64,000 bases of DNA from Naegleria gruberi (Eukaryota): assembly GCA_000004985.1 (NCBI GenBank), contig GG738854.1, one strand, 5' to 3'. Of this stretch, positions 2,612-48,481 are shown one piece after another. A program made the position numbers and the translations under genes. How positions within the stretch are numbered: position 1 is the first letter of the stretch; the number at the start of each line of letters is the position of its first letter. The notes under the pieces are model-generated. The model searched no databases. It worked only from the letters and a program-made list of their open reading frames with translations, and was not told the DNA's origin.

Positions 2612-2858
2612 ATCTTATAATTATTGAACATTTGACAGAGTATTGACTTTTCAAAAATTTGGGGATGGCATCACTTTGCTTGCTGTTTGAATTTTCTGTG
2701 TAGATCAGAACACAAAATATGTTTCACACTTAATTTGGATAATTGTTGGATGGTTTGTTTTCCAGAAGGACGAGAAATAATGAGAGAAACCTACACAGAA
2801 GAGGATAAAAGAGATTTATTCTAACATATGGTTTTCATAAATTGAAAGCAACAAAATT

Positions 2859-2948
2859 TGATGCGAGTGGGATTTGAACCCACGCCCTTGCGGAACACGG
2901 TATTAGAATACCTTAACGTGTCGTCTTAGACCACTCGACCATCGCACC
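2859..2948 (-). tRNA. tRNA-Leu (anticodon most likely AAG), class II with long variable arm and a putative 10-nt intron at position 37/38
   Basis: Reverse complement reads GGTGCGATGGTCGAGTGGTCTAAGACG..ACACG TTAAGG[tattctaata]C CGTGT..GTGGGTTCAAATCCCAC TCGCATC A. Acceptor stem 7 bp with one G-U pair, Leu-type D-loop GAGTGGTCTAA, T-loop TTCAAAT, 11-nt variable arm. Confidence 0.7.
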
Positions 2949-3321
2949 ATCGAATATTTCAAACAAAATGGTTAAGACAACAGTTAAAAGAGAATTTCAA
3001 AGAGAAAAGCAAGTTGAAAGAACCATGTTAAGACTACAGTTTGGTTAATGGGTTCGAGGATTTTACAATCAATCTGTTCACTAATGACTTTTCTTGAATG
3101 ATATAGATTATTCTGAATTCTGTTTGATTAATAATAATTAATTTAATTATTGAAAGTAAAATTTTGATGGAACTATCTGTTGCTCAATGATGTCGGTTAG
3201 CACAATTAGGTGCCTTTTCAAAATATTATCGATACTATTCGAAAGGAAAATAATCCATAATATTTGTGTGTGAAAACAACAAGCTCCATCTCTTCTCTTT
3301 GAATTCATTCAAATGATTCAA

Positions 3322-7830: not shown

Positions 7831-9222
7831 ATGACTTCAAGTGTACAACCATCTACTCCACCTCTAGGCGCAACAGGAGTTGATGAAACAACACCTCTCT
7901 TTGAGAGTACTCTCCTTATTGAAGATCAGGATAATTTGTTAATGTCTGATCTCAAGAATAATCAAGAAAGTGCCCTATTCGAAACAATTGATAAGGATAA
8001 TATTGACAGCAACTTTACCATTGAAGCGAATACTTCTGGTGGGGTTGATTTTGATGCAAATATATTCAATGATGAAGAATTTGGCAATTTAGCATCTGCC
8101 TTCACAACTGAAACAAAGGAAGAGGAACAAGTGGCAAAAAGTCCAATTCTCATTGAAGTTCCCTCCAATGCAAACTTTTTCAATATGAAAAGCTCACAAG
8201 AATATACCATTGAGGAGGATCAACCATTCCTTGAAACCTTTGAAATGCACCAGGAGAAACTCGAGCAAGAAGAGAAACCTTCTGATGTTGCCCCTTTCAC
8301 AGATGCTTCTGAATCTTCGTTCATGGCTGGAACTTCTAATTTGAATGATAAGATGGATATGGCACCACCAACTAGATTGAAATTCAGTGTTGAAGGATCT
8401 TACACATCCTCATCCACAACAGATCCACTAACCTCATTCACAGCTCCCAGTATTTCAATAATGGAAGCTGATGATAATCCCTTTTCATTAACTTCTCCTC
8501 AGGACTTTTCCTCAAATGTTTCATCGAATGGATCAACAAGTGGATTTTCAAATAATCATTCTGCTAGATCGTCTGACAACTCTCCTCCCTCCAAATCAGT
8601 TAAAACTGAAAACAAGTCAAGTGCAAGTCAGAGATTGGAAAGAGATGATGACTTGTCTGGTTATACTTCAGATGTGTCATCTGAGGAGGGAGAACAGAAA
8701 CTTCCTGGTATTTCCAAAACTCCCTACTTTGAACTTCGAATCACACTTTCACAATTCAACTTTTTCAGAGTTGTGAGAGTACCTCAATTGGTAAATCTCA
8801 ACGATTTGTATATTATTTCAATGGAAGCACTGGATTGGGATGATGATAAGTATAGAGAACATCCACATTATTTCAGAGATGAAGGTGGAAGAATCTTCGC
8901 CAGCTCAATACGTACATTATCTAACATTCCACCTGAAGAAGAGGACAATGTTAAAGATGAAAAGACCTATCTTTTAAATCAGGTGCTCAAGCATGAAAGA
9001 AGTACTCTCACGTTGTACTATTCCAGTAAGAAGGAGTGGATTGTCACTATTGCCCTTCAAGAAATATTCGATGAGAAGCCACCCAAAGACAAATACTCAC
9101 AAGCGGTTTACTGTGTTTCTGGGCGAGGAGGGGGCATTAGTGAAGTAGACTCATCCAAGGAAGGTAAATTTGATAAATCCAGTGTAAACAAACGTCTACA
9201 AGAAATCAAACCCACCGAATAA
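7831..9222 (+). CDS. Acidic, serine-rich hypothetical protein (463 aa)
   Basis: ATG at 7831 with A-rich context. Long non-repetitive ORF. No recognisable domain. Confidence 0.5.
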   Translation: MTSSVQPSTPPLGATGVDETTPLFESTLLIEDQDNLLMSDLKNNQESALFETIDKDNIDSNFTIEANTSGGVDFDANIFNDEEFGNLASAFTTETKEEEQVAKSPILIEVPSNANFFNMKSSQEYTIEEDQPFLETFEMHQEKLEQEEKPSDVAPFTDASESSFMAGTSNLNDKMDMAPPTRLKFSVEGSYTSSSTTDPLTSFTAPSISIMEADDNPFSLTSPQDFSSNVSSNGSTSGFSNNHSARSSDNSPPSKSVKTENKSSASQRLERDDDLSGYTSDVSSEEGEQKLPGISKTPYFELRITLSQFNFFRVVRVPQLVNLNDLYIISMEALDWDDDKYREHPHYFRDEGGRIFASSIRTLSNIPPEEEDNVKDEKTYLLNQVLKHERSTLTLYYSSKKEWIVTIALQEIFDEKPPKDKYSQAVYCVSGRGGGISEVDSSKEGKFDKSSVNKRLQEIKPTE

Positions 9223-33493: not shown

Positions 33494-36107
33494 TTACATG
33501 ACAAGACAATTTCTATCTGATGAATTATTCATCTTTTTACCTAAACTCTTGTTTCCAGAAGATGAAGGTTTCTGGTGATGTCTATTGACATTGGCATGTA
33601 CAGGTGCATTTGGATTGTGTGATCCGCCAAGAATGGATTTTATCACTTGTACATCATCCTCATCATACTCATCAACCAAATGTTGTCTTTCACCATCTTC
33701 CAGTAAGCTATCATAAGCATCCTTTTGTTCTTTCATGTATTGGAATACTTTCTGTTCATTGTCTTGTTGTTTGGATCTGGCAAGAGTGAATTCTTCATGG
33801 ACTATGGTGATGGTTTCGATCAAGTTTTGATCTAATTCAGCTTCCAATTGCTCTTGTGTGTAATTTGTAAAGTTTCTGGCAATGAGATGGATACAACATT
33901 TTTTGACAATTTCAGCTTGACACATTTCAGCAACTTGACACATTTGTAAAACGTTGGAAGGTTGAAGATAGAGGACAATCTTTCTCTCTGCTGCAAGTTT
34001 GAGTGTATCAATGTTAAATCTGGTAGCCAGTTCAAGGAGAGGTACACTTTGCTCAGCAGTCAACTCATTATCATTGATATTTCCACCTGTGTAAATGTGT
34101 TTCAATAGAATTTCGAATGAATCTCTGGTGGTGCTGTCGAGGTGAATAACCTTTTGGAAACTTTCACTGAATTGACCAATGGAGAACATGGCTCTGAAAT
34201 ATTCCAATCTGGCACATAAAATACAACGATGTGATCTGATAAATGTTCCATCATCCAATGAAAAACTCACGTCTGAGAGGAAGGAGAAGATGGTATCAGC
34301 TGCTGGGTCATTAAGTCCTGAACTTTCTCTCATTGCCAATTTGTACAAATTTTCAAAATCTCTGGTATAATCACTCAGCTCTCCAAGAAGACTGCTTGAT
34401 CCCTTGACTTTTTCATGGATCATTTCTTTGGAAACCACCTCAATCATTGTAGCTAGATCCTTCTTATTCTCATCAGATATATCCTCTTTTTTTAACAATT
34501 CTGTCAAAATTTTGGTAGCTGCTTGTGTATTGTTAATATGTTCATTAATGATGAGAAGCATTCGTTCATTCTTTGCTGAACGACCAGTTGCATTGGTATA
34601 AATGAAATTCAATAGTTCATCCAATTCTTCTTGACTTTCAACAAAATCCAGGGTAATTACTCTTTCAATGTGTGATGTATCTGTGACCTTGAATTTTGAT
34701 GATTGATTATTATTCGATTCCAAATATTCCTTAATCAATAAACTTGTAAATAAAGGACTACGGGCACTAAGAATGGCAGCATGGCAAACAGCTTCATGTC
34801 CATTCTTTGATTTGAGAATACAATCAGCATAGTATTGAGTTTCTTTCAAAAGTTTGGTATAACTTGCTGTGAAACTCATACCAGTCACTAAAAACATATT
34901 GTAACCACCAACAAAAACATCACCAATATAAGTTTCAGCAATGGAACCGACTGGAGTTGGATCATTAACATATTTACCGTGACCATGCCCCAAATTAAAG
35001 TGCAAATTGTGTCCCCAAGAGTAGACATTTCCATCATTGGTCAAGACAATAAATGAACTGTATGATGAGGCAATCTTTTTGATATTTCCTTTTGAAATTG
35101 GAATGCTCACCATTGTGGGGTTCATAATTTCACTGTTTGCATCACTGAGATGATCATTCTTTTCAGTTTTTGCTGTTTTAATTCTTCCCCAAACATAAAT
35201 ATTACCCAAATTATCCAAAGCCATTGTATGTCTCATTCCACAACTCACTTGAACCCAACGAGAACCACTCTCAGCATATGGATGTTTCACTTCAACAATT
35301 TTTTCCTCACTAATATGAGCACTACCGTCCTTAGTCACTTGGCCATCACTATTTTTACCATAGCCAAACAATTTTCCACTCTCAGTCAATACAAATCCAT
35401 GGTGAGTTCCACAATTCACACTGGCACAAACCTCTGAATCAATCAATGAATTTCTCACCATGACAGGTTTATGTCTATTCTCCAAACCCCAAGTGAATAA
35501 TCTTCCATCCTCACTCACAGCAGCCGAATGTCCTTCACCAGCTGCACAATCAACAATTCTATGCGAAAACAAGTATTGAATTGGTTCTGGTATTCCACAC
35601 AATGAAGACATTCCGTGCCCACATCCCATTCCAAAGCCGAAACTAAATAAAGTTCCATCACAAGTCAAAACGAGTGAATGTGTCTTTCCAGCACTTGCTT
35701 TCAATACACGATGATGTGCACTTGTACTGAATGGTTCTTTAACTTCGATCGGAAGTGTATAATTTAAAATATCAAGAGATTCAGGTTCACCTAAACCAAG
35801 AGCACCATATCTATTTCTTCCAACTATTCCATTTAGTTTAGAATAGTTTTTTATATGATTAATTATAAAAAGATCAAATGATCATTACACTACCTCCATA
35901 AAGATGTCCACTTGTAGTAACAATCAGAGAATGCCACAAACCCACCGAAATAGACTGAATATCGAGAGACGAAAGTTGTGGAGATTCCACCAATGTCGTC
36001 TGAGTTTTATAAGTATCAAGTGCTAAACCACCAAATCCTCCGAAACCAACTTGCTACTGTTGGAAATGTATTTCTATTAGAAACTTACCAGCAAGAGTTG
36101 CAGACAT
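33494..36107 (-). CDS. RCC1-repeat plus tandem BTB/POZ protein (RCBTB-like), at least 3 exons about join(33494..35823,35894..36037,36089..36107)
   Basis: RCC1 repeats GLWHSLIVTTSGHLYGVGRNRYGALGLGEPE and HSLVLTCDGTLFSFGFG. Two BTB cores GHEAVCHAAILSARSPLFTSLL and RSHRCILCARLEYFRAMF. Micro-exon 1 ATGTCTGCAACTCTTGCTG|GTAAGT. Exon 2/3 junction GGAG|GTAGTG..AATGGAATAG|TT in phase 1. The exon-2 acceptor is ambiguous; the intron is 51 or 67 nt. Confidence 0.65.
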
Positions 36108-36366: not shown

Positions 36367-37205
36367 ATGTCGTTATCTGATGATTCTTTCACAAAGACAA
36401 AGAGAAAATACTCCGATTATGAAAAAGATTATAAAGAAGAAGATGATGCTGATGATGAATTAATTTATGATCGTTTTGATAAGAAACGTAAAGGTGAAGA
36501 AGAATTAATTGTCGGAATGAAAACAATGTTAAATGTTCAACCTGATGAGGTGATTTTCTTACTCCGAAGGCAACAATTGGTATTTCGAGTGTTTCTCATC
36601 AATTTAGAAGAGTTTGGAAAGAAACTCCGAATGGAATTGTTTACAATATGATTATTCAATTGAACTATTCCTTTAAGAAACGTTCCTGTTCCTTGGATGA
36701 TAGAATTCAAGTGGCCAATTTTTCCAAATCGGCAATAATAGGAGCTTTCATTCAGGGAGAATCATCAGAAAAGATTCTTTCAAAGACAGAACGTTTTGTT
36801 GATGAATTAAGCAAAATTAAGGATAAATCTGAAAATTTCACAAATGCCATTTCAAGAATTGACAGATTTGATTATGGACAAGATGACAAAATGTATTATG
36901 GAGCTTCCCTTCGTAGAGCTGCTGGTTTTGAAATATCCTTTGGTAAACTTGGAGTATTGAGATATTGGCAATGGAAAGAAAGAGATGAGGAATTTGGAGA
37001 TTCCACAGTATTTGCTAAATTATCCAAAAAATTGGAAACTTTGAATTTGACAGAGGAAGAATGGGATGTTATCATTGAAAATTCGATTGGATATTTGGAG
37101 GAAGAACAAGTGGAAATTTGTTTTTATGAATTTCAGTATGAAGAGGAGATGGGAGATTCAATTTTTATGGATAATGAATTGGTACCATCACTGCCTTGTG
37201 ATTAA
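36367..37205 (+). pseudogene. F-box-like family member A of a tandem triplet; frameshifted within the F-box-like region
   Basis: ORFs 36367..36651 and 36648..37205 are in different frames. Against paralogs B and C, the region PDEIIEQIFDFIPNRYSAIRVSGVSQQFRRVWK is present but carries a net 4-nt deletion: PDEVIF then frame change, GISSVSHQFRRVWKETPNGIVYNMIIQLNYSF in the other frame. Confidence 0.5.
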
Positions 37206-37248
37206 ATTCTATGATTGGCTGTCAGCTTTCAATTTTACAATAAAAAAA

Positions 37249-38091
37249 ATGTCAGCACAAGAAAGTGAAGAAACATCAAACTCATGCTACTCTTCAGATG
37301 ATGAAGAACAGAGTCAGGGAACAAAGAGAAAGCTTGATGATGATGATTTTATTTCCAAAAACAAGAAACAAAAACAAACAATTATTGGAGTGCAAACTCT
37401 CGGACAAATGCCAGACGAAATTATTGAACAAATATTCGATTTTATTCCGAACAGATATTCGGCAATTCGTGTTTCTGGTGTTTCTCAACAATTTAGAAGA
37501 GTTTGGAAGAAGACTACTTTTGGAATCGTTTACAATATGATTATTGAACTAAACTATTCTTTTGTGAAACATTCGTATTCTTTGGATAAACAAATTGGAA
37601 TTGGCCGAATTGTTAAAGAAGAGATCAATCAACTGTTTGCTGAAAAAGAAGATGAAAAGCAAGATTTATTTTATGAACAACAGGCTGATCTTTTAATTGA
37701 AGAATTGAGGAAAAAAGAAAACATGTCAGAAAACTTTACAAAAGCACTTTCAGAGATTACAAGATTTGATTATGGAGAAGAGAGGGATGTGCCTAATGGA
37801 GTATGTATGGGAGTGAGTAAGGGAATGGAGATTGAATTTGGAGATCTAGGGATGATTAGATTTTGGAAATGGGATCAAATCTATGTTAAACATGGAGACT
37901 CTATAGAATCTGGCATAATGTCGGAAAGTTTACTTGATTTGAATTTGACAGAGGAGGAATGGAATATCATTATTGAAACTGCAGGTAGTAAAGCAGATCT
38001 GTGGCTTAGATATAAAAACTTTGAGCACCACAATGAAGTGGGCTCAATATTTGAGGATCATTTGTTAGAAATTTCAAGTGAGCTTTGGTGA
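37249..38091 (+). CDS. F-box-like family member B (280 aa)
   Basis: ATG at 37249 (AAAAAAAATGTCAGCA). MPDEIIEQIFDFIPNRYSAIRVSGVSQQFRRVWKK. Conserved C-terminal region shared with A and C (NLTEEEWD..II). Confidence 0.6.
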   Translation: MSAQESEETSNSCYSSDDEEQSQGTKRKLDDDDFISKNKKQKQTIIGVQTLGQMPDEIIEQIFDFIPNRYSAIRVSGVSQQFRRVWKKTTFGIVYNMIIELNYSFVKHSYSLDKQIGIGRIVKEEINQLFAEKEDEKQDLFYEQQADLLIEELRKKENMSENFTKALSEITRFDYGEERDVPNGVCMGVSKGMEIEFGDLGMIRFWKWDQIYVKHGDSIESGIMSESLLDLNLTEEEWNIIIETAGSKADLWLRYKNFEHHNEVGSIFEDHLLEISSELW

Positions 38092-38257
38092 TGATGGAAC
38101 ATAAATTGAGTTTAGAATATTCAAATATTGCTAGAAATAATTATTTTCTGTTCAATAAACCCAGTATCAGTTATACTAAAGTACTTCATATCATGCCGCG
38201 GTATTATCTTTCGAATAATTTCACAGTTTACAAAATATTATTTTTTTTTTTAAAAAA

Positions 38258-39046
38258 ATGTCATCACAACAATCTAATATTATTGATGATAATCAATCCA
38301 CAATGAAAAAACATGACAAAAATAGCCAAATTTCTCACCACCACAAGAAAAATCTGGCAAGTCAACCTGAGGAAATTATTGAGCAAATATTCGAATTTAT
38401 ACCTAGAGATGAAATTATTCGTGTATCGGGAACTTGCCAGCAATTCAGGAGATTGTGGAAAGAAAGTCCTCATGGAATAGTTTTTAACATGATTATTCAA
38501 CTAAACTATTCCTTTCAGAAATATTCCTATTCTTTGAATGATGAAATTGAATTGGGAATATATACAAAGGAAACAATTAGTAGAATGATTTGTAAGAAGG
38601 AAAAGGAAAGGCAACAGTTATTTAATCTTGAAAAGAAAGATCGATTGTTAACTAAATTAAGTGGAAAGGAAAATATTTCTGAAAATTTCAACAAGGCAAT
38701 TAAATTGATTACAAGATTTGATTATGAAGAAATAGAAAGAGAACACAATAATTCACCGTGTTATGCACGTGGATTTGAAATTGAATTTGGTCAACTTGGA
38801 ATGATGCAACTTTGGAAATGGAATTATTTAAGAGAAGACCACAGCGAATTATCAGCCAAAATGTCAGAAAAATTGAAATCATTGAATTTAACAGAAGATG
38901 AATGGGATTTCATTATCAAAATGGCATGTAACTATATTAATTTATCGAGGGTTGATTTGGATGATTTTTACTATCAAGAAATTCGCGAATCAATATTTAA
39001 GGACCATTATATTATGACCAAACCTATAATTTCTTTCAGGTTTTAA
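38258..39046 (+). CDS. F-box-like family member C (262 aa)
   Basis: ATG at 38258 (AAAAAAATGTCATCA). PEEIIEQIFEFIPRDEIIRVSGTCQQFRRLWKES. LNLTEDEWDFIIK. Confidence 0.6.
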   Translation: MSSQQSNIIDDNQSTMKKHDKNSQISHHHKKNLASQPEEIIEQIFEFIPRDEIIRVSGTCQQFRRLWKESPHGIVFNMIIQLNYSFQKYSYSLNDEIELGIYTKETISRMICKKEKERQQLFNLEKKDRLLTKLSGKENISENFNKAIKLITRFDYEEIEREHNNSPCYARGFEIEFGQLGMMQLWKWNYLREDHSELSAKMSEKLKSLNLTEDEWDFIIKMACNYINLSRVDLDDFYYQEIRESIFKDHYIMTKPIISFRF

Positions 39047-39213
39047 AAGTGTTGATTTCAAATTATAAAATAAAAACTGAATGTATTTAGTTAAAGCAGG
39101 TTTGAAACACTTTCGTATGTGATTTTAATTTTGTTGGTGTTATCTTGTAAATCAAAATTACAGGCTAAGGAACTAATTCAATAAAATAGCATTGCAACAA
39201 AATTAAAATCACA

Positions 39214-39284
39214 GGGGGCGAGGGGGAATCGAACCCCCGGCCACAGCTTTGGAGGCTGCGATGTTACCATTACACCACCGCCCC
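39214..39284 (-). tRNA. tRNA-Trp (anticodon CCA)
   Basis: Reverse complement GGGGCGGTGGTGTAATGGTAACATCGCAGCCTCCAAAGCTGTGGCCGGGGGTTCGATTCCCCCTCGCCCC. Anticodon loop CTCCAAA. T-loop TTCGATT. Confidence 0.8.
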
Positions 39285-40723: not shown

Positions 40724-42460
40724 ATGATTCAACTCCTTGACTTGGATTCTCTTGCTTCCATCTTCTCATTTCTTCCTGACAATCACCGAGGAAAATCTGC
40801 TCAAATATTGAAATGTGTTTCCAAGTACTTTTCCCACTTGTTTTCAGTAAATTATAATCATCAATATACTGATTACTTTCGGGAAGTGTTCGGATCAATG
40901 TTTGTGCCAAAGATGTATATTCAACTATGTAGGCTTTCTACTCAGTCCTCCGATCGTGATGAATTTGGAGATCAATTTAGCAATTGTTTAAAAAGATTAT
41001 TCGGAAGAAGATTTGAAGCAATTTCCAAGACTGAATTTGAATTGGAGTTTGATTTTCCAACTACTACTGAAGAGAAGAATACTGAACATATTTTGAATTT
41101 TCTTCCACACATTGTGGAGCAGAATTCAGACGAAAGGCAATACTTGTTGGATGATGAAAAACATTCTGCCAATCATGATTTGATAAAGCAACTGCTACAT
41201 TGGAAGTTTAATTCTAAAGATTCACTGACATTGAATAATTATCGGAACTTTGATAAAAGGAAGAAAATCAATGCATTTCGTTTCTTCAAAAAATTCAAAT
41301 TTCATTTTCAATTAGTCACTAACTCCACATTGGGAGAAACAGAAATTTACACTTGTAAATACTTTAATCTATTCGAAGTATGGGATAATGTCATAGTTCC
41401 CAAACTAGATTCAACTTCTGTTAGATGTGAAATAGAGAAGAGTTCAGAATCTCAAGCTTATGGAATTATTCGTTCTTCTTTTCTGAACTTCATCAAGTAT
41501 GCAGAAAAATATGGAGACTTTGAATTGCAACAAATATATAATGGGAAAGAGTTGGATGAATTACAAAAAATCTCACAAGAAGGTTCTATTACTGACTTGA
41601 TTGACTATTTGACCATTTCAAGAAATATAATAATGCATTTCACAACGAGTATACTCTCCAACAATACCAACCTGATTCGATATTCTTCCATAGAGAGGCC
41701 ATACTTTCACCCTAAAATACGCACTGCTTTGGGAATTACTGAGAACCTATCACTCATACCATGGAATGTATTTACCAACAATATTAGACTCGAGTTCTCT
41801 TCAATCATTCTCTATCACTTGTTGGAGGATGCGTTGAATATTTCAGAGGAATATCTCACCAAGTACAGAAACATACACAACCTACCAATATATCACCAGA
41901 AAGAGCAGAGGATTACTTTTGTATCGAATAGGAACAATTTTGTTCTCAAATTTCAAACCCTTGAATTCTACAGAACTGTTGCCATAATTAGAAATAACAT
42001 TGTGACAATACCCTTCTACCCAAGTGCATCCCTTGAGGGTTTCTCTCATCATGTTCCTCGCGACCAAGTATCAACCTTCCCTACCACCTTAGATTCAGTC
42101 AATCTGTGTTGCATGAAGTACTGCACCTTCAATACTATCACTGCTCCATTATGGTGTGTTCCTTGCTGTTGCTGGTGGGGTGCCATGACTTGTTGTTGTC
42201 TCTATCCTCTATGTTATCAAGCAGAGAAATTGCTCTCTGGAGATGGTATGTGTGATGCACTGGTGGACAGCAAACATAGATGCATGTCGTGTTTTGATTG
42301 TGATGTATGTTTATTCGTTTCTGCCAACTCCTTGTGTTATCCTTGCTTTTTATTAAAGGCCAGGGTAACCGATGGACCTTTTCTACCAGAGGCCAGAAGT
42401 TGGACCATTGCTGACGACAAGATATTTGGAAATAATAATAACTATTGCAATATTCTGTAG
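40724..42460 (+). CDS. F-box-like N-terminus with polycysteine C-terminal tail protein (578 aa), intact paralog of 1434..2611
   Basis: ATG at 40724 (AAAAAAAATGATTCAA). MIQLLDLDSLASIFSFLPDNH. C-terminal 100 aa with about 25 Cys: CCMKYCTF..LWCVPCCCWWGAMTCCCLYPLCY..CMSCFDCDVCLF..CYPCF. Confidence 0.6.
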   Translation: MIQLLDLDSLASIFSFLPDNHRGKSAQILKCVSKYFSHLFSVNYNHQYTDYFREVFGSMFVPKMYIQLCRLSTQSSDRDEFGDQFSNCLKRLFGRRFEAISKTEFELEFDFPTTTEEKNTEHILNFLPHIVEQNSDERQYLLDDEKHSANHDLIKQLLHWKFNSKDSLTLNNYRNFDKRKKINAFRFFKKFKFHFQLVTNSTLGETEIYTCKYFNLFEVWDNVIVPKLDSTSVRCEIEKSSESQAYGIIRSSFLNFIKYAEKYGDFELQQIYNGKELDELQKISQEGSITDLIDYLTISRNIIMHFTTSILSNNTNLIRYSSIERPYFHPKIRTALGITENLSLIPWNVFTNNIRLEFSSIILYHLLEDALNISEEYLTKYRNIHNLPIYHQKEQRITFVSNRNNFVLKFQTLEFYRTVAIIRNNIVTIPFYPSASLEGFSHHVPRDQVSTFPTTLDSVNLCCMKYCTFNTITAPLWCVPCCCWWGAMTCCCLYPLCYQAEKLLSGDGMCDALVDSKHRCMSCFDCDVCLFVSANSLCYPCFLLKARVTDGPFLPEARSWTIADDKIFGNNNNYCNIL

Positions 42461-44004: not shown

Positions 44005-45738
44005 TTAATGAATGTCACCTCCAATGAAATTCAACCGACTTCCAATATTTTCCAATATTATTGGAACATACTCAACAGCTTCTCCGTCAATTGTCAGATA
44101 ACTCTTCTTTGTTGAGGTTGGCTTAAAGTACATCGCCTTAATTTTACGATACAACCACTTGTCATGGTTATGATAGTCTCCCTTCTCACAGCTCAATAAA
44201 ATAGATAAAAGTTCAAGAGGACTGGCAGGCTTCTTCACATACATCAAATCGACAAGGTTGTCATTGTGGAAGCTTAAATGGGAAGCTACAAAATCTGCTG
44301 CAGCATGAGAGACATTACTTGCAAACATATAGGTGAAGGATTGGTCGACTTCTTCGTGCTTTACATATTCTTCAGTATTAACAATACTTGCCTGCTTTGA
44401 ACTATCCAAATATTGGGTCAGGCCCATTTCCTTTAACTCTTTAGAGAGGAATTGACGTGATATTGGACTGTCCAATTCAATTTTTGATTTCAAATCAGTT
44501 TGCACAAAGGCACTGTTAATAGAGTGATTTCCTTTGAATTCTTCAATTTCAGCTCCATTTTGTTTCTTCAAGTATTCATATTTCTTTGGTTGAACAATCG
44601 TCAAATTACCTGTATAGTATCTTCCAAAACAAGCGTACCATACAGATCCTAGAATGAATCTGAAATCTCCAATGAATCTAATAAATTCAGTATCAACATC
44701 CACATCGGCAATGCCACCAAAACTAAAACTAACAAATCCATAAGTCTTTCCTTTTCCAGGTTGGAAGACTGTCCACAAATCCATAGGAGAACAAAGACCT
44801 CTACAAATAAATAGAGTGCCTCTCTTGACCAAGCTTTCGTCATTGGTTATGGTGTTGAATCCAAACAAGAATTTTTGGAAATGACAACTCACTGCATTAC
44901 CACTTCCAGTTGGAATGACACCAAATCTCATCTTTGAAAGTAAATCCAATTTTCCTTCTTTTTCTAATCTTGGAATTAAACCATTTATGACTTCATTCAG
45001 AGTACCGTCTCCACCACAAGCTATAATTTCATTAACCTTACTCAAATCCAACTCTTTTTCACAATATTCTTTAATGTGACCAGATCTCTTAGAAACAATA
45101 AACTCAAAATTATTTCCAATATGACTTTCTGTAATCATTGGCTTGACAATATTCTCAAAATTTTGTAAAGATTGACCTGATCCACTCTTTGGGTTAATAA
45201 ATATCAATAATTTTCTATTGGATTGAACTAATTGCTCTCCAGATTCAACTCTAAATATTTTCTTCTTTAACAAATCAGCAAGTGATTGAACCAATTCCGA
45301 GCTAGGACCACTAATTGTCATCTTTTCCTTGTGATTGGTAATTAAATTCAAACTCAACAAGACCACTCTATCTTCTTCTTCGGAATGGACAGCATAAAAC
45401 TCATAGAGAGGAATAATTCTGGTTTCTTGCTGGTTATTACTGGAGGTAATAATTAATTGTTCATCAAAAACTTCAACAGTACAATCAGAAATTATATTTG
45501 AATAGCCTTGTCCGTCCTGTACTTTATAGTCTACTGTCATATTGGCAGCTTTCATCAAGGATTGTCCCTTCTTTTCCAAGTAGAGTATGTGTTTATCCCG
45601 ATTAGCATGTTTGTTGAGTATTTCACTCATCTGTTGATAGGGAGAGCTATTCTTCTTATTATTCTTCTTCCACAAATATCCGACAACTATCACCACAGCA
45701 ATCACCAAGGCAGTAAATAACCAAGTGTTATCCAACAT
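44005..45738 (-). CDS. Lipid kinase with DAGK catalytic domain (sphingosine/ceramide kinase-like) and N-terminal TM anchor
   Basis: LLIFINPKSGSGQS and IIACGGDGTLNEVINGL (DAGKc GGDG motif). N-terminal hydrophobic WLFTALVIAVVIVVGYLW. ORF starts at TTG 45783; first ATG at 45738. Confidence 0.65.
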   Translation of the reverse strand: MLDNTWLFTALVIAVVIVVGYLWKKNNKKNSSPYQQMSEILNKHANRDKHILYLEKKGQSLMKAANMTVDYKVQDGQGYSNIISDCTVEVFDEQLIITSSNNQQETRIIPLYEFYAVHSEEEDRVVLLSLNLITNHKEKMTISGPSSELVQSLADLLKKKIFRVESGEQLVQSNRKLLIFINPKSGSGQSLQNFENIVKPMITESHIGNNFEFIVSKRSGHIKEYCEKELDLSKVNEIIACGGDGTLNEVINGLIPRLEKEGKLDLLSKMRFGVIPTGSGNAVSCHFQKFLFGFNTITNDESLVKRGTLFICRGLCSPMDLWTVFQPGKGKTYGFVSFSFGGIADVDVDTEFIRFIGDFRFILGSVWYACFGRYYTGNLTIVQPKKYEYLKKQNGAEIEEFKGNHSINSAFVQTDLKSKIELDSPISRQFLSKELKEMGLTQYLDSSKQASIVNTEEYVKHEEVDQSFTYMFASNVSHAAADFVASHLSFHNDNLVDLMYVKKPASPLELLSILLSCEKGDYHNHDKWLYRKIKAMYFKPTSTKKSYLTIDGEAVEYVPIILENIGSRLNFIGGDIH

Positions 45739-45802
45739 ATTTTTTCTAACAATGATTTTGGATAATAGTGTTAAATCGTTCAATTCGGAAGTATTGAGTG
45801 GT

Positions 45803-48481
45803 TTATTTATTGATTTCGGCTAAGAGATTTGCAAAATCAGAGCAAATTCTCTTTATCAACAAGTCAGGCGAGGAGCTTAACATGGTGACGAGGTGTTGGA
45901 GAATCAATCTCTTTGGAGTTCCAGCAATGAGTGGATTCCAATTTGTGGATGTAGATTTTGGATCCCAAGGACCTAAGAGAGAACGGAAGAGATCAGTCAG
46001 TCTGTTATTATTAATCTTTGCCAAATGTTTTGCATAGGATTGAACAGCATACATGTAACTTCCAATATCTCCAATTGCTGCTGCAGATGTCATGGCAAGC
46101 TCTAGGTCATCTATGATATCAATGTTAGCAGTTTCTGTTGTTGGTGTTATTTCTGGATGTTCAAGTCTGAATTTTTGCACTGCTTTGGCAGCCTTGTTTC
46201 TTAATACTTTGAGTGTCACTTCAGCATCTTCAAAATTAACATCCTCAATTTCTTCAAGGTTTACTCTGCCTTGAGAAAGGAAAGGAGAAAATACTGAATG
46301 TGAATCGGCAACACAAATCCATGTGTTCAAATTTACATCAAAAGCAAAAGATTCACCACTAGTTAATGTTACAATACCAACACCTTTAGCTGTCACAGCA
46401 ATATCATCAACAATTCTCATCTCTACAGAAGTAATGGACGTGTTGCTTAGTAATGGGTCTGCACTGCAACGTACAAGGCACTTTTGCTTCCTGACATCCC
46501 ACACATAAAACATTAGCTCTGCAGTGTAAGCTGCCAAGAAATCTCCTGAACAATTTACATGTTCAATCTTTGAATCTAAAACTAATGGAGGTAATAATCT
46601 CATACCAGACTCTGTTGAAAAAACATGGCACTGATTGGAAGGGAATGTACATACAGCAATAAAGAATTGAGTACCAGCAGCCAAGTTTGGATAACTATGA
46701 AGGACGCTACCCGTTCCTGAAACTGTGCTCTTCCATTCTAGAGCGTTGTTTCGTTTCAATTCAACAATACCCTCCAGTGAGCAGAATAATTCATCTCTGG
46801 CATTAAGTCTTAAATAGAGTGGCTCAGCAGTAATGGTAGATAAATCCCTTAAAGGATTAATTGGATTCTTTGTTTTTTTCTTATTCTTTTTCGAATTATC
46901 TTCTGGTTCAATACGTGTTCTTTTCTTTGTTACTTCGGTTGTTACTTTCAAAATGTCAGATGTTGAATATGTACTAGGGGCAAATCCAATTGATGTCTCC
47001 ACAGCATTAACTCCTATTCTATTTGAAATTACATCATTCAACATGTTTTCCTTTTGCGTATCAATATTGAATGGACCAGTAGCAAAATTTTTGAGAGTGT
47101 TTTCCTCCTCTTCTTCATCATCATCAAAAGAAGTATGTACTGGTACAATTCTCTTTTTACCATTAACTATTTCAGTTCGTTGTGTAACTGATGGTTTTGG
47201 TTTTGGTGGTATGACATTGTTAGAACTACTAGAGGTTGCTAGAGAAGCTAAAGGATTAGACTGCAATTGTGGAAGAGGTGCAATTTCTCCAAGTTGAGGA
47301 ATTGCAAAAATGGTGCTAGGATATTCAGACAAAACTGTACCAAGCTCCATGTCTCCGTAATATTGTTCGAGGTATTCTTTTTTTTCTCTTTGACTTAATG
47401 GATTTCCAAAGAAGCCTGAAGGGAATGTGATTGAGTGTACTGAACCATCATTACTTGATACTAATAAAGACAACCCATCTGCACTCCATACAATGTCACT
47501 AATTGACTGTTTACAAATATTGTTAATATGAATCATTGGCTTTGGAATTTCAGAAGAAAAAACGCTTATCGTATCTTCAGTGCTCACTGCAAAGAAAGTC
47601 CAAGGTTTGGCTTTCTTCTTGAAAATACATGGATTAAAAGCAGTAAACCAAACAGGGTGATTATTGTGGAAAGGGATACATTGGGAGAAATCGTCCTGTC
47701 TCATATAAATATTTGCACAATAAACAGTCTTTGTGTATGCATTTGGAATAATCAAGAATTGACCACAAGGAGAAAATGAAGGTTTGTAAACAGCAATATC
47801 AACCTTACCGAATACATTACTAATCCTTTTGTGAAATTGAAAAACACCATCATTAAGGGCCCAAATAAATACAGAATGATCCGATTGAGATACAAGATAC
47901 TTTCCGATAGGATCAAAGGTAACACCTTTCACAAATTCATTGTGGTCGCTGGATTTCAATACAATATCACCAACATTTTTTGCTCTCATATCATAGACTA
48001 CTACAGAATTGTCAATTGAACAAGAAGCTAAATATCGTGAGTCACCACTCCAAGCAATAGACAGCACATCACTTGTGTGAGTCTTGAAATGTTTGATCCT
48101 CTTCCAACTCTCTTTATCAGTATTTGCTTTGGAGACCTTGTACACACTAACAGAAAAGTCATCAGAATTGGCTGCAATAAATTTACCATCTGGACTAAAC
48201 CTTGCACAATTAGTATTTCCACCAATTTTCTGGATACAGAAATCCGATTCTGTTTTAATAGTAGCGACTGATGAAGATAATTCGGTCTCTGTGATTGCAG
48301 TATCACCTGATGGTTTTGTAGAGTTGATGTAAGAAGTAGCTTTCCATATGTTGATCAACTCATCTGAACAAGTTAAAAATCTACTATTATCGGGATGAAC
48401 ATCAATAGAAAAAACAGGTTGTTCAGAAGAAATCCAGTTAATTTTTTCTGCAATGGCTTTTGGTTGTTGTTGTTCTTCCAT
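45803..48481 (-). CDS. HIRA: Histone chaperone HIRA/Hir1 homolog (N-terminal 7-blade WD40 plus C-terminal Hira region)
   Basis: VFSIDVHPDNSRFLTCSDELINIWK. ..DVLSIAWSGDSRYLASCSIDNSVVVYDMRA..VKGVTFDPIGKYLVSQSDHSVFIW. ..KKKAKPWTFFAVSTEDTISVF..DIVWSADGLSLLVSSNDGSVHSITF. These align block-by-block with HIRA. ORF starts at TTG 48520; first ATG (MEEQQQ) at 48481. Confidence 0.85.
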   Translation of the reverse strand: MEEQQQPKAIAEKINWISSEQPVFSIDVHPDNSRFLTCSDELINIWKATSYINSTKPSGDTAITETELSSSVATIKTESDFCIQKIGGNTNCARFSPDGKFIAANSDDFSVSVYKVSKANTDKESWKRIKHFKTHTSDVLSIAWSGDSRYLASCSIDNSVVVYDMRAKNVGDIVLKSSDHNEFVKGVTFDPIGKYLVSQSDHSVFIWALNDGVFQFHKRISNVFGKVDIAVYKPSFSPCGQFLIIPNAYTKTVYCANIYMRQDDFSQCIPFHNNHPVWFTAFNPCIFKKKAKPWTFFAVSTEDTISVFSSEIPKPMIHINNICKQSISDIVWSADGLSLLVSSNDGSVHSITFPSGFFGNPLSQREKKEYLEQYYGDMELGTVLSEYPSTIFAIPQLGEIAPLPQLQSNPLASLATSSSSNNVIPPKPKPSVTQRTEIVNGKKRIVPVHTSFDDDEEEEENTLKNFATGPFNIDTQKENMLNDVISNRIGVNAVETSIGFAPSTYSTSDILKVTTEVTKKRTRIEPEDNSKKNKKKTKNPINPLRDLSTITAEPLYLRLNARDELFCSLEGIVELKRNNALEWKSTVSGTGSVLHSYPNLAAGTQFFIAVCTFPSNQCHVFSTESGMRLLPPLVLDSKIEHVNCSGDFLAAYTAELMFYVWDVRKQKCLVRCSADPLLSNTSITSVEMRIVDDIAVTAKGVGIVTLTSGESFAFDVNLNTWICVADSHSVFSPFLSQGRVNLEEIEDVNFEDAEVTLKVLRNKAAKAVQKFRLEHPEITPTTETANIDIIDDLELAMTSAAAIGDIGSYMYAVQSYAKHLAKINNNRLTDLFRSLLGPWDPKSTSTNWNPLIAGTPKRLILQHLVTMLSSSPDLLIKRICSDFANLLAEINK

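What the first reader, a model, noticed from the sequence alone, without database searches (positions are those of the whole stretch)
36367..39046. Tandem triplet of F-box-like paralogs; the first copy carries a frameshift inside the F-box
Three head-to-tail genes A, B and C share the cores P(D/E)EIIEQIF(D/E)FIP..IRVSG(V/T)(S/C)QQFRR(V/L)WK and NLTE(E/D)EWD.II. All three start with near-identical AAAAAATGTC contexts. Copy A has a net 4-nt deletion in the F-box-like segment relative to B and C, which splits it into two frames (36367..36651 and 36648..37205). The array ends right before a tRNA-Trp gene. This is a recently duplicated, fast-evolving adaptor family with ongoing pseudogenisation.
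Basis: seen in the sequence. Interest (0 to 1): 0.6.

Follow-up and report, generated by a model that had tools for sequence, protein, structure and literature searches.

The report
Tandem Naegleria F-box genes, one broken
Three neighbouring genes of the amoeba Naegleria gruberi encode old, diverged copies of a lineage-specific F-box (ubiquitin-ligase adaptor) protein, and the first copy has lost the core of its F-box through a frame-shifting 16-base deletion; this is an ordinary gene-family feature, and its main practical use is to show that the public gene model fusing copies A and B is wrong.

Summary
The window is Naegleria gruberi nuclear DNA. Three head-to-tail paralogs lie at 36367-37205 (A), 37249-38091 (B) and 38258-39046 (C). 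A tRNA-Trp gene on the minus strand starts 168 nt after C. B and C pass Pfam's F-box threshold. A reads QPDE in one frame and FRRVWK...stop in the +2 frame. Its F-box segment is 50 nt long, against 66 nt in C and 69 nt in B. The net loss is therefore 16 nt, not 4, and it removes the IIEQIF helix-1 core. Even a frame-repaired A has no F-box hit.

The copies are not recent: amino-acid identity is 41-49% and dS is saturated at 1.0-1.2. A+B+C form a clade in 1% of bootstraps. N. gruberi has at least three more members on two other scaffolds. dN/dS of 0.37-0.49 indicates purifying selection. A shows no decay apart from the lesion. It is therefore either a very young pseudogene, which I favour, or an F-box-less derivative. 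The C-terminal domain of about 190 aa has no Pfam or PDB relative. GenBank's NAEGRDRAFT_47059 is a chimeric A+B model. The finding is ordinary and of low interest.

The parts
36367..36549 (+). Copy A, N-terminal part in its original frame. It holds the acidic/basic leader with KRK..KKRK motifs and VGMKTMLNVQPDE, the last in-frame residues before the lesion.
   Evidence: The frame-0 translation aligns with the N-termini of B, P0004 and P0005 up to P59-D-E61.
36550..36551 (+). Deletion junction in A. Two bases ('gt') stand where the paralogs have 18 nt encoding IIEQIF (F-box helix 1). The net loss is 16 nt relative to C and 19 nt relative to B. It shifts the reading frame by +2.
   Evidence: Read directly from the sequence. 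The 5-residue gap shows in the repaired alignment. Exact placement of the indel depends on the alignment; MAFFT splits it into gaps of 9, 4 and 3 nt.
36552..36651 (+). Out-of-frame tail of the 94-aa frame-0 ORF of A. It ends at a TGA that overlaps the conserved ATG at 36648.
36549..37205 (+). Copy A, remainder in frame +2. It holds the F-box remnant (DFLTPKATIGISSVSHQFRRVWK) and an intact C-terminal family domain. It is open for 218 codons, and the first ATG is at 36648.
   Evidence: E 3e-103; 38 of 40 family-invariant columns kept.
37249..38091 (+). Copy B, an intact 280-aa F-box protein. The F-box spans residues 53-90, roughly 37405-37518.
   Evidence: Pfam PF00646 scores 22.7 bits against a cut-off of 20.5. 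It is 100% identical to the C-terminal 280 aa of XP_002680188.
38258..39046 (+). Copy C, an intact 262-aa F-box protein. It is NAEGRDRAFT_64435 / XP_002680189. The F-box spans residues 37-70, roughly 38366-38467.
   Evidence: Pfam PF00646 scores 26.8 bits. Identity with P0002 is shown.
39214..39284 (-). Neighbouring tRNA-Trp(CCA) gene. It is context only and is not shown to be functionally linked.

Best explanation
B and C are intact members of a small F-box protein family found so far only in Naegleria and a few unnamed environmental sequences.

Each protein has four parts:
- a charged N-terminal leader with a KRK...KKxK motif that resembles a bipartite nuclear localisation signal (inference from the motif);
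- a canonical F-box, which by established knowledge docks onto Skp1 of an SCF (Skp1-Cul1-Rbx1) ubiquitin ligase;
- a long helix;
- a compact domain of four strands plus helices, about 190 aa in total, with no known relative. It presumably selects the substrate (inference).

The three genes are old tandem paralogs kept under purifying selection. Copy A suffered a net 16-nt deletion that removed F-box helix 1 (IIEQIF) and shifted the frame.

Most likely A is a very young pseudogene, inactivated too recently to have collected further lesions. The public model NAEGRDRAFT_47059 (460 aa) patches over the frameshift with two invented introns and wrongly fuses A to B.

Shown: paralogy, F-box membership of B and C, the lesion, the age of the duplicates, and the lack of further decay in A. 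Inferred: SCF function, nuclear location, and non-functionality of A.
For: Organism and gene models.

F-box: it is above the Pfam threshold in B, C and P0003-P0007, and is absent from frame-repaired A at E<=1. 12 of 13 family members hit F-box-like, the exception being A.

Lesion.

Old duplicates under purifying selection: dS 1.0-1.2 and dN/dS 0.37-0.49. Codon identity is near the codon-usage expectation.

Family size and spread: only 5 hits below 1e-10 among 1.84 billion representatives, all from N. gruberi. Weaker hits come from N. lovaniensis and unnamed metagenome or Logan contigs.

The chimeric model is doubtful for three reasons:
- Its first intron (36511-36569, donor GTCGGA) removes sequence that is homologous to coding F-box sequence in the paralogs.
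- Its second intron (36943-37225) removes the conserved GKLGVLRYWQW...NLTEEEWDVII motifs.
- 46 different GT..AG pairs would restore the frame by chance, and none restores an F-box.

A young lesion is consistent with the data. Neutral decay leaves both ORF parts free of stop codons with P about 0.07 at 0.05 substitutions per site and below 0.01 at 0.1.
Against: A shows no sign of relaxed constraint. Its terminal branch is 0.267, against 0.24-0.32 for the intact paralogs. It keeps 38 of 40 columns that are invariant in the other five members, the same as intact B. This fits a functional F-box-less protein equally well.

No expression data or read data could be obtained.

Skp1 binding and substrate binding are inferred, not tested.

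The structure model is of moderate quality only (mean pLDDT 67).
Confidence: 0.55

Rival explanations
1. A is still functional as an F-box-less paralog. The conserved C-terminal domain would be produced by initiation at the conserved ATG at 36648, by reinitiation at the overlapping ATGA, or by splicing out the damaged segment. The product would bind the family's substrates or partners without recruiting SCF, acting as a natural decoy or stabiliser.
For: The 218-codon downstream frame and the 61-codon leader are both intact in a 33% GC genome. The branch length and the retention of family-invariant residues match those of intact paralogs. The frame-0 stop overlaps the conserved Met codon (ATGA at 36648-36651). 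In-frame GT..AG options exist, for example AAG|GTGAAG at 36494 to the AG at 36549.
Against: Terminal branches are long, so a recent inactivation would be invisible in them. Reinitiation after a 94-codon ORF is inefficient in eukaryotes (general knowledge). The ATG and the out-of-frame TGA are ancestral features shared with B and C, not adaptations. The candidate splice sites are weak compared with the clear GTAAGT intron in the window. There are no expression data.
Confidence: 0.27
2. The frameshift is a sequencing or assembly error, and A is an intact third F-box gene.
For: It could not be checked against reads or an independent assembly. The rest of A is perfectly preserved.
Against: The difference is a net 16-nt loss in non-repetitive sequence, not a homopolymer slip. 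Even if 1-2 nt are added back, five codons of the F-box core are missing, and the repaired protein has no F-box hit at E<=1.
Confidence: 0.08
3. The GenBank model is right: A and B are one gene (NAEGRDRAFT_47059, 460 aa) with introns at 36511-36569 and 36943-37225.
For: The model exists in NCBI and UniProt. Both proposed introns have GT..AG ends, and the second has a fair donor (GTAAAC) and acceptor (TGTCAG).
Against: Both 'introns' delete sequence that is in frame and conserved with five paralogs. The exon junction reads through B's 5' leader and its AAAAAAATG start context. The donor GTCGGA is poor. The homolog in N. lovaniensis is a single-domain gene of 312 aa.
Confidence: 0.05

Closest known systems
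F-box proteins of the 'FBXO' (other C-terminal domain) class, which are substrate receptors of SCF ubiquitin ligases (Pfam PF00646)
   Same: The N-terminal F-box of about 40 aa has the LPxE[IL][IL]xxI[FL]...[VC]S[KR]xF/W pattern and scores above Pfam's threshold in B, C and the other intact members tested (P0003-P0007). A separate C-terminal domain is presumed to bind substrate.
Lineage-specific tandem expansions of F-box genes with frequent pseudogenes, as described in plants and nematodes (my own knowledge, not checked here)
   Same: Tandem arrangement, lineage restriction, one member with a disabling lesion, and a probable second tandem pair elsewhere (P0004 and P0005 have consecutive accessions on one scaffold).
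   Different: The family is tiny (about 6 genes) rather than hundreds. The duplicates are old and under purifying selection (dN/dS about 0.4), with no sign of rapid birth-and-death turnover or positive selection.
NAP/SET histone-chaperone fold (a weak structural lead only)

Membership tests
F-box domain proteins (PF00646) | An F-box motif scoring at or above Pfam's gathering score | tested here: met
   B 22.7 bits and C 26.8 bits, against a cut-off of 20.5. P0003-P0007 score 25.3-38.6 bits.
F-box domain proteins (PF00646), copy A | An F-box motif scoring at or above Pfam's gathering score | tested here: not met
   Neither reading frame of A nor the conceptually frame-repaired protein gives any F-box hit at E<=1. 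The helix-1 core IIEQIF is deleted.
F-box domain proteins (SCF substrate receptors) | Physical binding to Skp1 and assembly into an SCF complex | not testable with these tools
   This needs a pull-down or yeast two-hybrid assay with N. gruberi Skp1.
FBXL / FBXW / Kelch / FBA classes of F-box proteins | A recognisable LRR, WD40, Kelch or FBA domain C-terminal to the F-box | tested here: not met
   No family other than F-box is consistently hit in 13 members at E<=10. Searches agree.
Processed or unitary pseudogene (copy A) | A disabling lesion relative to functional paralogs | tested here: met
   A frameshift with a net 16-nt deletion in the F-box. Two in-frame stops precede the downstream frame.
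Processed or unitary pseudogene (copy A) | Relaxed selective constraint (extra stops or indels, an accelerated branch, loss of invariant residues) | tested here: not met
   There are no further stops or indels. The branch length is 0.267 against 0.24-0.32 for the others, and 38 of 40 invariant columns are kept. This is compatible only with less than about 0.05 substitutions per site of neutral decay.
Processed or unitary pseudogene (copy A) | Absence of a translated product | not testable with these tools
   No transcript or read data were reachable.
NAP/SET fold | Significant structural superposition on solved NAP/SET chains | tested here: inconclusive

The most novel reading that the evidence does not exclude
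Copy A is not dead. It would be a naturally evolved F-box-less 'decoy' paralog, expressed from the conserved internal ATG or after the damaged F-box segment became an intron. It would antagonise its SCF-adaptor neighbours B and C by sequestering their targets. The shared C-terminal module would be a previously undescribed nuclear, possibly NAP-like, substrate-binding fold specific to heteroloboseans.
Probability: 0.15. Interest if true: 0.4.

Novelty: new member of a known kind. Interest (0 to 1): 0.18.

Why it matters
The practical consequences are modest:
1. The reference protein XP_002680188 / NAEGRDRAFT_47059 (UniProt D2V6G9) is a chimera of a broken gene and an intact one. It should be split, because it contaminates orthology and domain-architecture analyses.
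2. The analysis defines a small Naegleria-restricted F-box subfamily with an uncharacterised C-terminal domain. This domain is a candidate substrate-recognition module in an organism used to study basal-body assembly and amoeba-to-flagellate differentiation.
3. It gives a clean example of a copy that lost only its F-box. If that copy is expressed, it would be a natural dominant-negative adaptor.

None of this changes how F-box families are understood.

Tried and rejected
Independent DNA or transcripts for the frameshift. Exact-protein look-ups of C, P0003, P0001, the 185-aa and 94-aa ORFs of A, B and P0004 all returned nothing. A metagenome scan for a 26-nt A-specific string and a metagenome search for relatives of A also found nothing.

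A fourth or relic copy in the window. Short repeats upstream of A (D5, D8 and D9) looked suggestive. Neither the protein profile nor the nucleotide profile finds anything outside A, B and C, so these are chance matches.

Programmed -1 frameshifting. No X XXY YYZ slippery heptamer exists in frame between 36549 and 36649 (read). The F-box core would still be missing. Rejected.

Rescue by a genuine intron. 46 frame-restoring GT..AG pairs exist, and none restores an F-box. The N. lovaniensis homolog has its only annotated intron near the 5' end, not in the F-box.

Collapsed alleles. Rejected, because the copies share 41-49% amino-acid identity.

Literature. No paper mentions these loci or accessions. 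A search for N. gruberi splice-site statistics gave nothing usable.

tRNA association. The N. lovaniensis homolog has no tRNA within 5 kb. The other N. gruberi loci could not be fetched.

Full report
**Source and layout**

The window is nuclear DNA of Naegleria gruberi. The translation of 37249-38091 is 100% identical to the C-terminal 280 residues of the NCBI protein 'predicted protein [Naegleria gruberi]' (P0001 = EFC47444 / XP_002680188 / NAEGRDRAFT_47059). The translation of 38258-39046 equals NAEGRDRAFT_64435 (P0002 = XP_002680189). Both lie on a 665-kb scaffold. The window has 32-39% GC. It is densely packed with intron-poor ORFs and carries four tRNA genes.

**Checking the observation**

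Three same-strand genes follow each other:
- A: 36367-37205, in two frames.
- B: 37249-38091, 280 aa.
- C: 38258-39046, 262 aa.

They align over their whole length at 74% mean column identity in DNA. They share 41-49% identity in protein. Profiles built from them find only these three places in the window: protein E 1e-103 to 1e-117 with the next hit at E 0.6, and DNA E 1e-193 to 1e-223 with the next hit at E 0.25. The paralogy is therefore far beyond chance, and there is no fourth or relic copy here.

In A, frame 0 reads MSLSDD...VGMKTMLNVQPDE. This is homologous to the leaders of B, P0004 and P0005. It then runs out of frame to a TGA at 36649-36651. Frame +2 has two stops (36543-36548) and then reads GDFLTPKATIGISSVSHQFRRVWKETPNGIVYNMIIQLNYSF... 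without interruption to 37205.

Between the PDE codons and the QFRR codons the lengths are:
- A: 50 nt.
- C: 66 nt.
- B: 69 nt.
- P0003, P0004 and P0005: 22 residues, like C.

The net loss is therefore 16 nt. In the most parsimonious reading, 18 nt encoding IIEQIF are replaced by 'gt' at 36550-36551.

tRNA-Trp(CCA) lies at 39214-39284 on the minus strand, 168 nt past the stop of C.

The shared AAAAAATGTC context is real. However, an A-run before the ATG is the usual start context in this window: about a dozen unrelated long ORFs have it, and the 10-mer itself occurs 7 times.

**What the genes are**

Pfam's F-box model (PF00646, gathering score 20.5) is passed by B (22.7), C (26.8), P0003 (38.6), P0004 (28.9), P0005 (29.1), P0006 (25.3) and P0007 (27.8). 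Nothing else is consistently hit in 13 family members even at E<=10.

Downstream of the F-box lie about 190 residues with strongly conserved blocks: GIVYNMIIxLNYSF, SENFxxAIxxIxRFDY, EIxFGxLGxxRxWxW and LNLTxEEWxxII.

An AlphaFold2 model of C from a 13-sequence alignment has a mean pLDDT of 67, rising to 70-93 over residues 60-235. It predicts a very long helix (71-135), a short helix, four strands (153-203) and two further helices. None of the structure searches links this domain to a known fold:
- A PDB sequence search found only marginal F-box matches.
- Foldseek against PDB found nothing at E<=1e-3.

I treat the NAP/SET resemblance as a lead only. The leaders carry KRK followed 10-12 residues later by KKxK (B: TKRKLDDDDFISKNKKQK; P0004 and P0005 are similar; A has KRK...KKRK). 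This resembles a bipartite nuclear localisation signal, which is an inference from the motif.

By established knowledge of F-box proteins, B and C should dock onto Skp1 through the F-box and present substrates bound by the C-terminal module to an SCF ligase. That mechanism is inferred and was not tested.

**Family size and age**

A full HMMER scan of 1.84 billion representatives with the family profile found only five proteins below 1e-10. All are from N. gruberi: the A+B fusion model, C, P0003 (EFC47012, another scaffold), and P0004 plus P0005 (EFC39626 and EFC39625, same 310-kb scaffold). In this data set adjacent genes have consecutive accessions: EFC47444 and EFC47445 are the A+B model and C. 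P0004 and P0005 are therefore probably a second tandem pair.

Weaker relatives (E 1e-8 and above in that scan) are one N. lovaniensis protein (P0007) and unnamed metagenome or Logan sequences. The N. lovaniensis gene is single, sits in unrelated gene surroundings and is more than 5 kb from any tRNA.

Within the array, synonymous sites are saturated:
- pS is 0.56-0.60 and dS is 1.0-1.2.
- At conserved residues, identical codons number 66 of 115 for B-C. Codon usage alone predicts 60.5. The A-B and A-C pairs run somewhat higher (53 of 85 against 43.8; 53 of 81 against 42.1).

dN/dS is 0.37-0.49, and this is probably an overestimate given the saturation.

In a neighbour-joining analysis of 164 ungapped columns:
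- The six N. gruberi members form a clade in 100% of bootstraps.
- B+C group in 74%.
- A+P0004+P0005 group in 51%.
- A+B+C group in only 1%.

The array is therefore old. Its members are no closer to each other than to copies on other scaffolds. 'Recently duplicated' is refuted, while expansion within the N. gruberi lineage is supported.

**The state of copy A**

The lesion removes the part of the F-box that, in solved Skp1-F-box complexes, makes the main contacts (general knowledge). A frame-repaired A gives no F-box hit at E<=1. No splice, slip or sequencing correction of 1-2 nt can therefore give back a working F-box.

Everything else in A is intact:
- The 61-codon leader and the 218-codon downstream frame have no stops or further indels.
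- The terminal branch is 0.267, against 0.24-0.32 for intact members.
- A keeps 38 of the 40 columns that are invariant in the other five members. B keeps 38 of 40 and C keeps 38 of 42.

About 6-7% of random substitutions in these frames create a stop. In simulations both parts stay open with P = 0.31 at 0.02 substitutions per site, 0.07 at 0.05, and below 0.01 at 0.1. If A is a pseudogene, it was inactivated within the last few percent of the time since the duplications (dS above 1). Otherwise it is still under selection.

I favour a young pseudogene (0.55) for three reasons:
- The most direct route to a product is initiation at 36648, downstream of a 94-codon ORF. This should be inefficient.
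- The ATG and the overlapping out-of-frame TGA are ancestral and are shared with B and C.
- The available splice donors are weak compared with the GTAAGT of the one clear intron in the window.

A functional F-box-less derivative (0.27) cannot be excluded with these tools. An assembly artefact (0.08) is unlikely to produce a 16-nt loss in non-repetitive sequence, and it would not restore the five missing codons.

**The public gene model**

P0001 (460 aa) joins ...KGEEELI to ATIGISS... by an 'intron' at 36511-36569 with donor GTCGGA. It joins ...GFEISF to AFNFTIKKMSAQ... by an 'intron' at 36943-37225. The first removes the remains of the F-box. The second removes the conserved GKLGVLRYWQW...LNLTEEEWDVII blocks, which are in frame and conserved with five paralogs. 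The model then reads through B's leader and start context.

This is what an ab initio predictor does to maximise coding length across a frameshift, so the model should be regarded as a chimera.

The 43-nt spacer between A and B is short but not unique. The genes ending at 45803 and starting at 45738 on the minus strand are 64 nt apart.

**tRNA adjacency**

With four tRNA genes in 64 kb, having one within about 170 nt of either end of the array has a post-hoc chance of a few percent. The only other locus of the family I could read shows no such link. I treat the adjacency as coincidental, though the other N. gruberi loci could not be examined.

**Verdict**

This is an ordinary, already annotated, lineage-specific F-box mini-family in tandem, with one copy that has lost its F-box. 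The useful by-products are the mis-fused reference model and an uncharacterised C-terminal domain.

Noticed in passing
window 39118-39136 and 39195-39213: A perfect 19-nt inverted repeat with a 58-nt loop directly abuts the 3' end of tRNA-Trp (39214-39284, minus strand). Folded as DNA it gives -18 kcal/mol, z = -5.7 against shuffles. The arm next to the tRNA contains T-runs that could serve as the Pol III terminator. Its origin (a small mobile-element footprint?) is unknown.
   Followed up: partly
window 2858-2949 (minus strand): A 92-nt tRNA-like gene. ARAGORN cannot assign its anticodon, yet it reaches 47.9 bits on Rfam's tRNA model. It is probably an intron-containing tRNA.
   Followed up: no
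window 33494-35704 (minus strand): The divergently oriented upstream neighbour encodes RCC1 repeats followed by two BTB domains. This is another cullin-adaptor-type architecture, next to the F-box array.
   Followed up: partly
window 40724-42460 (plus strand): A 578-aa ORF begins MIQLLDLDSLASIFSFLPDNHRGKSAQILKCVSKYF. By eye this looks F-box-like, but it gives no Pfam F-box hit at E<=1. The C-terminus is very cysteine-rich (CCCWWGAMTCCC...).
   Followed up: partly
window 36574-36707 compared with 37463-37596: Just downstream of the frameshift, A and B share 80% nucleotide identity. They have 17 of 20 identical codons at conserved degenerate residues, where about 10 are expected from codon usage (binomial p = 0.002, borderline after correction for about 18 windows). 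This could be a short gene-conversion tract or a nucleotide-level constraint.
   Followed up: partly
window 45738-45803 (minus strand) and 37206-37248: Intergenic spacers between same-strand genes are very short (64 nt and 43 nt). Promoter and 3'-end signals must therefore overlap neighbouring coding sequence in this genome.
   Followed up: no
L001 8001-8170 (N. lovaniensis PYSW02000029.1): The annotated 5' intron (8019-8170, GTATGC...TTTCAG) of the distant homolog P0007 skips an AAAAAAATGTCC start at 8108. That start has the family's typical context and an MSKR... leader, but it is out of frame with the rest of the gene. This may be another mis-model or another frameshift.
   Followed up: partly
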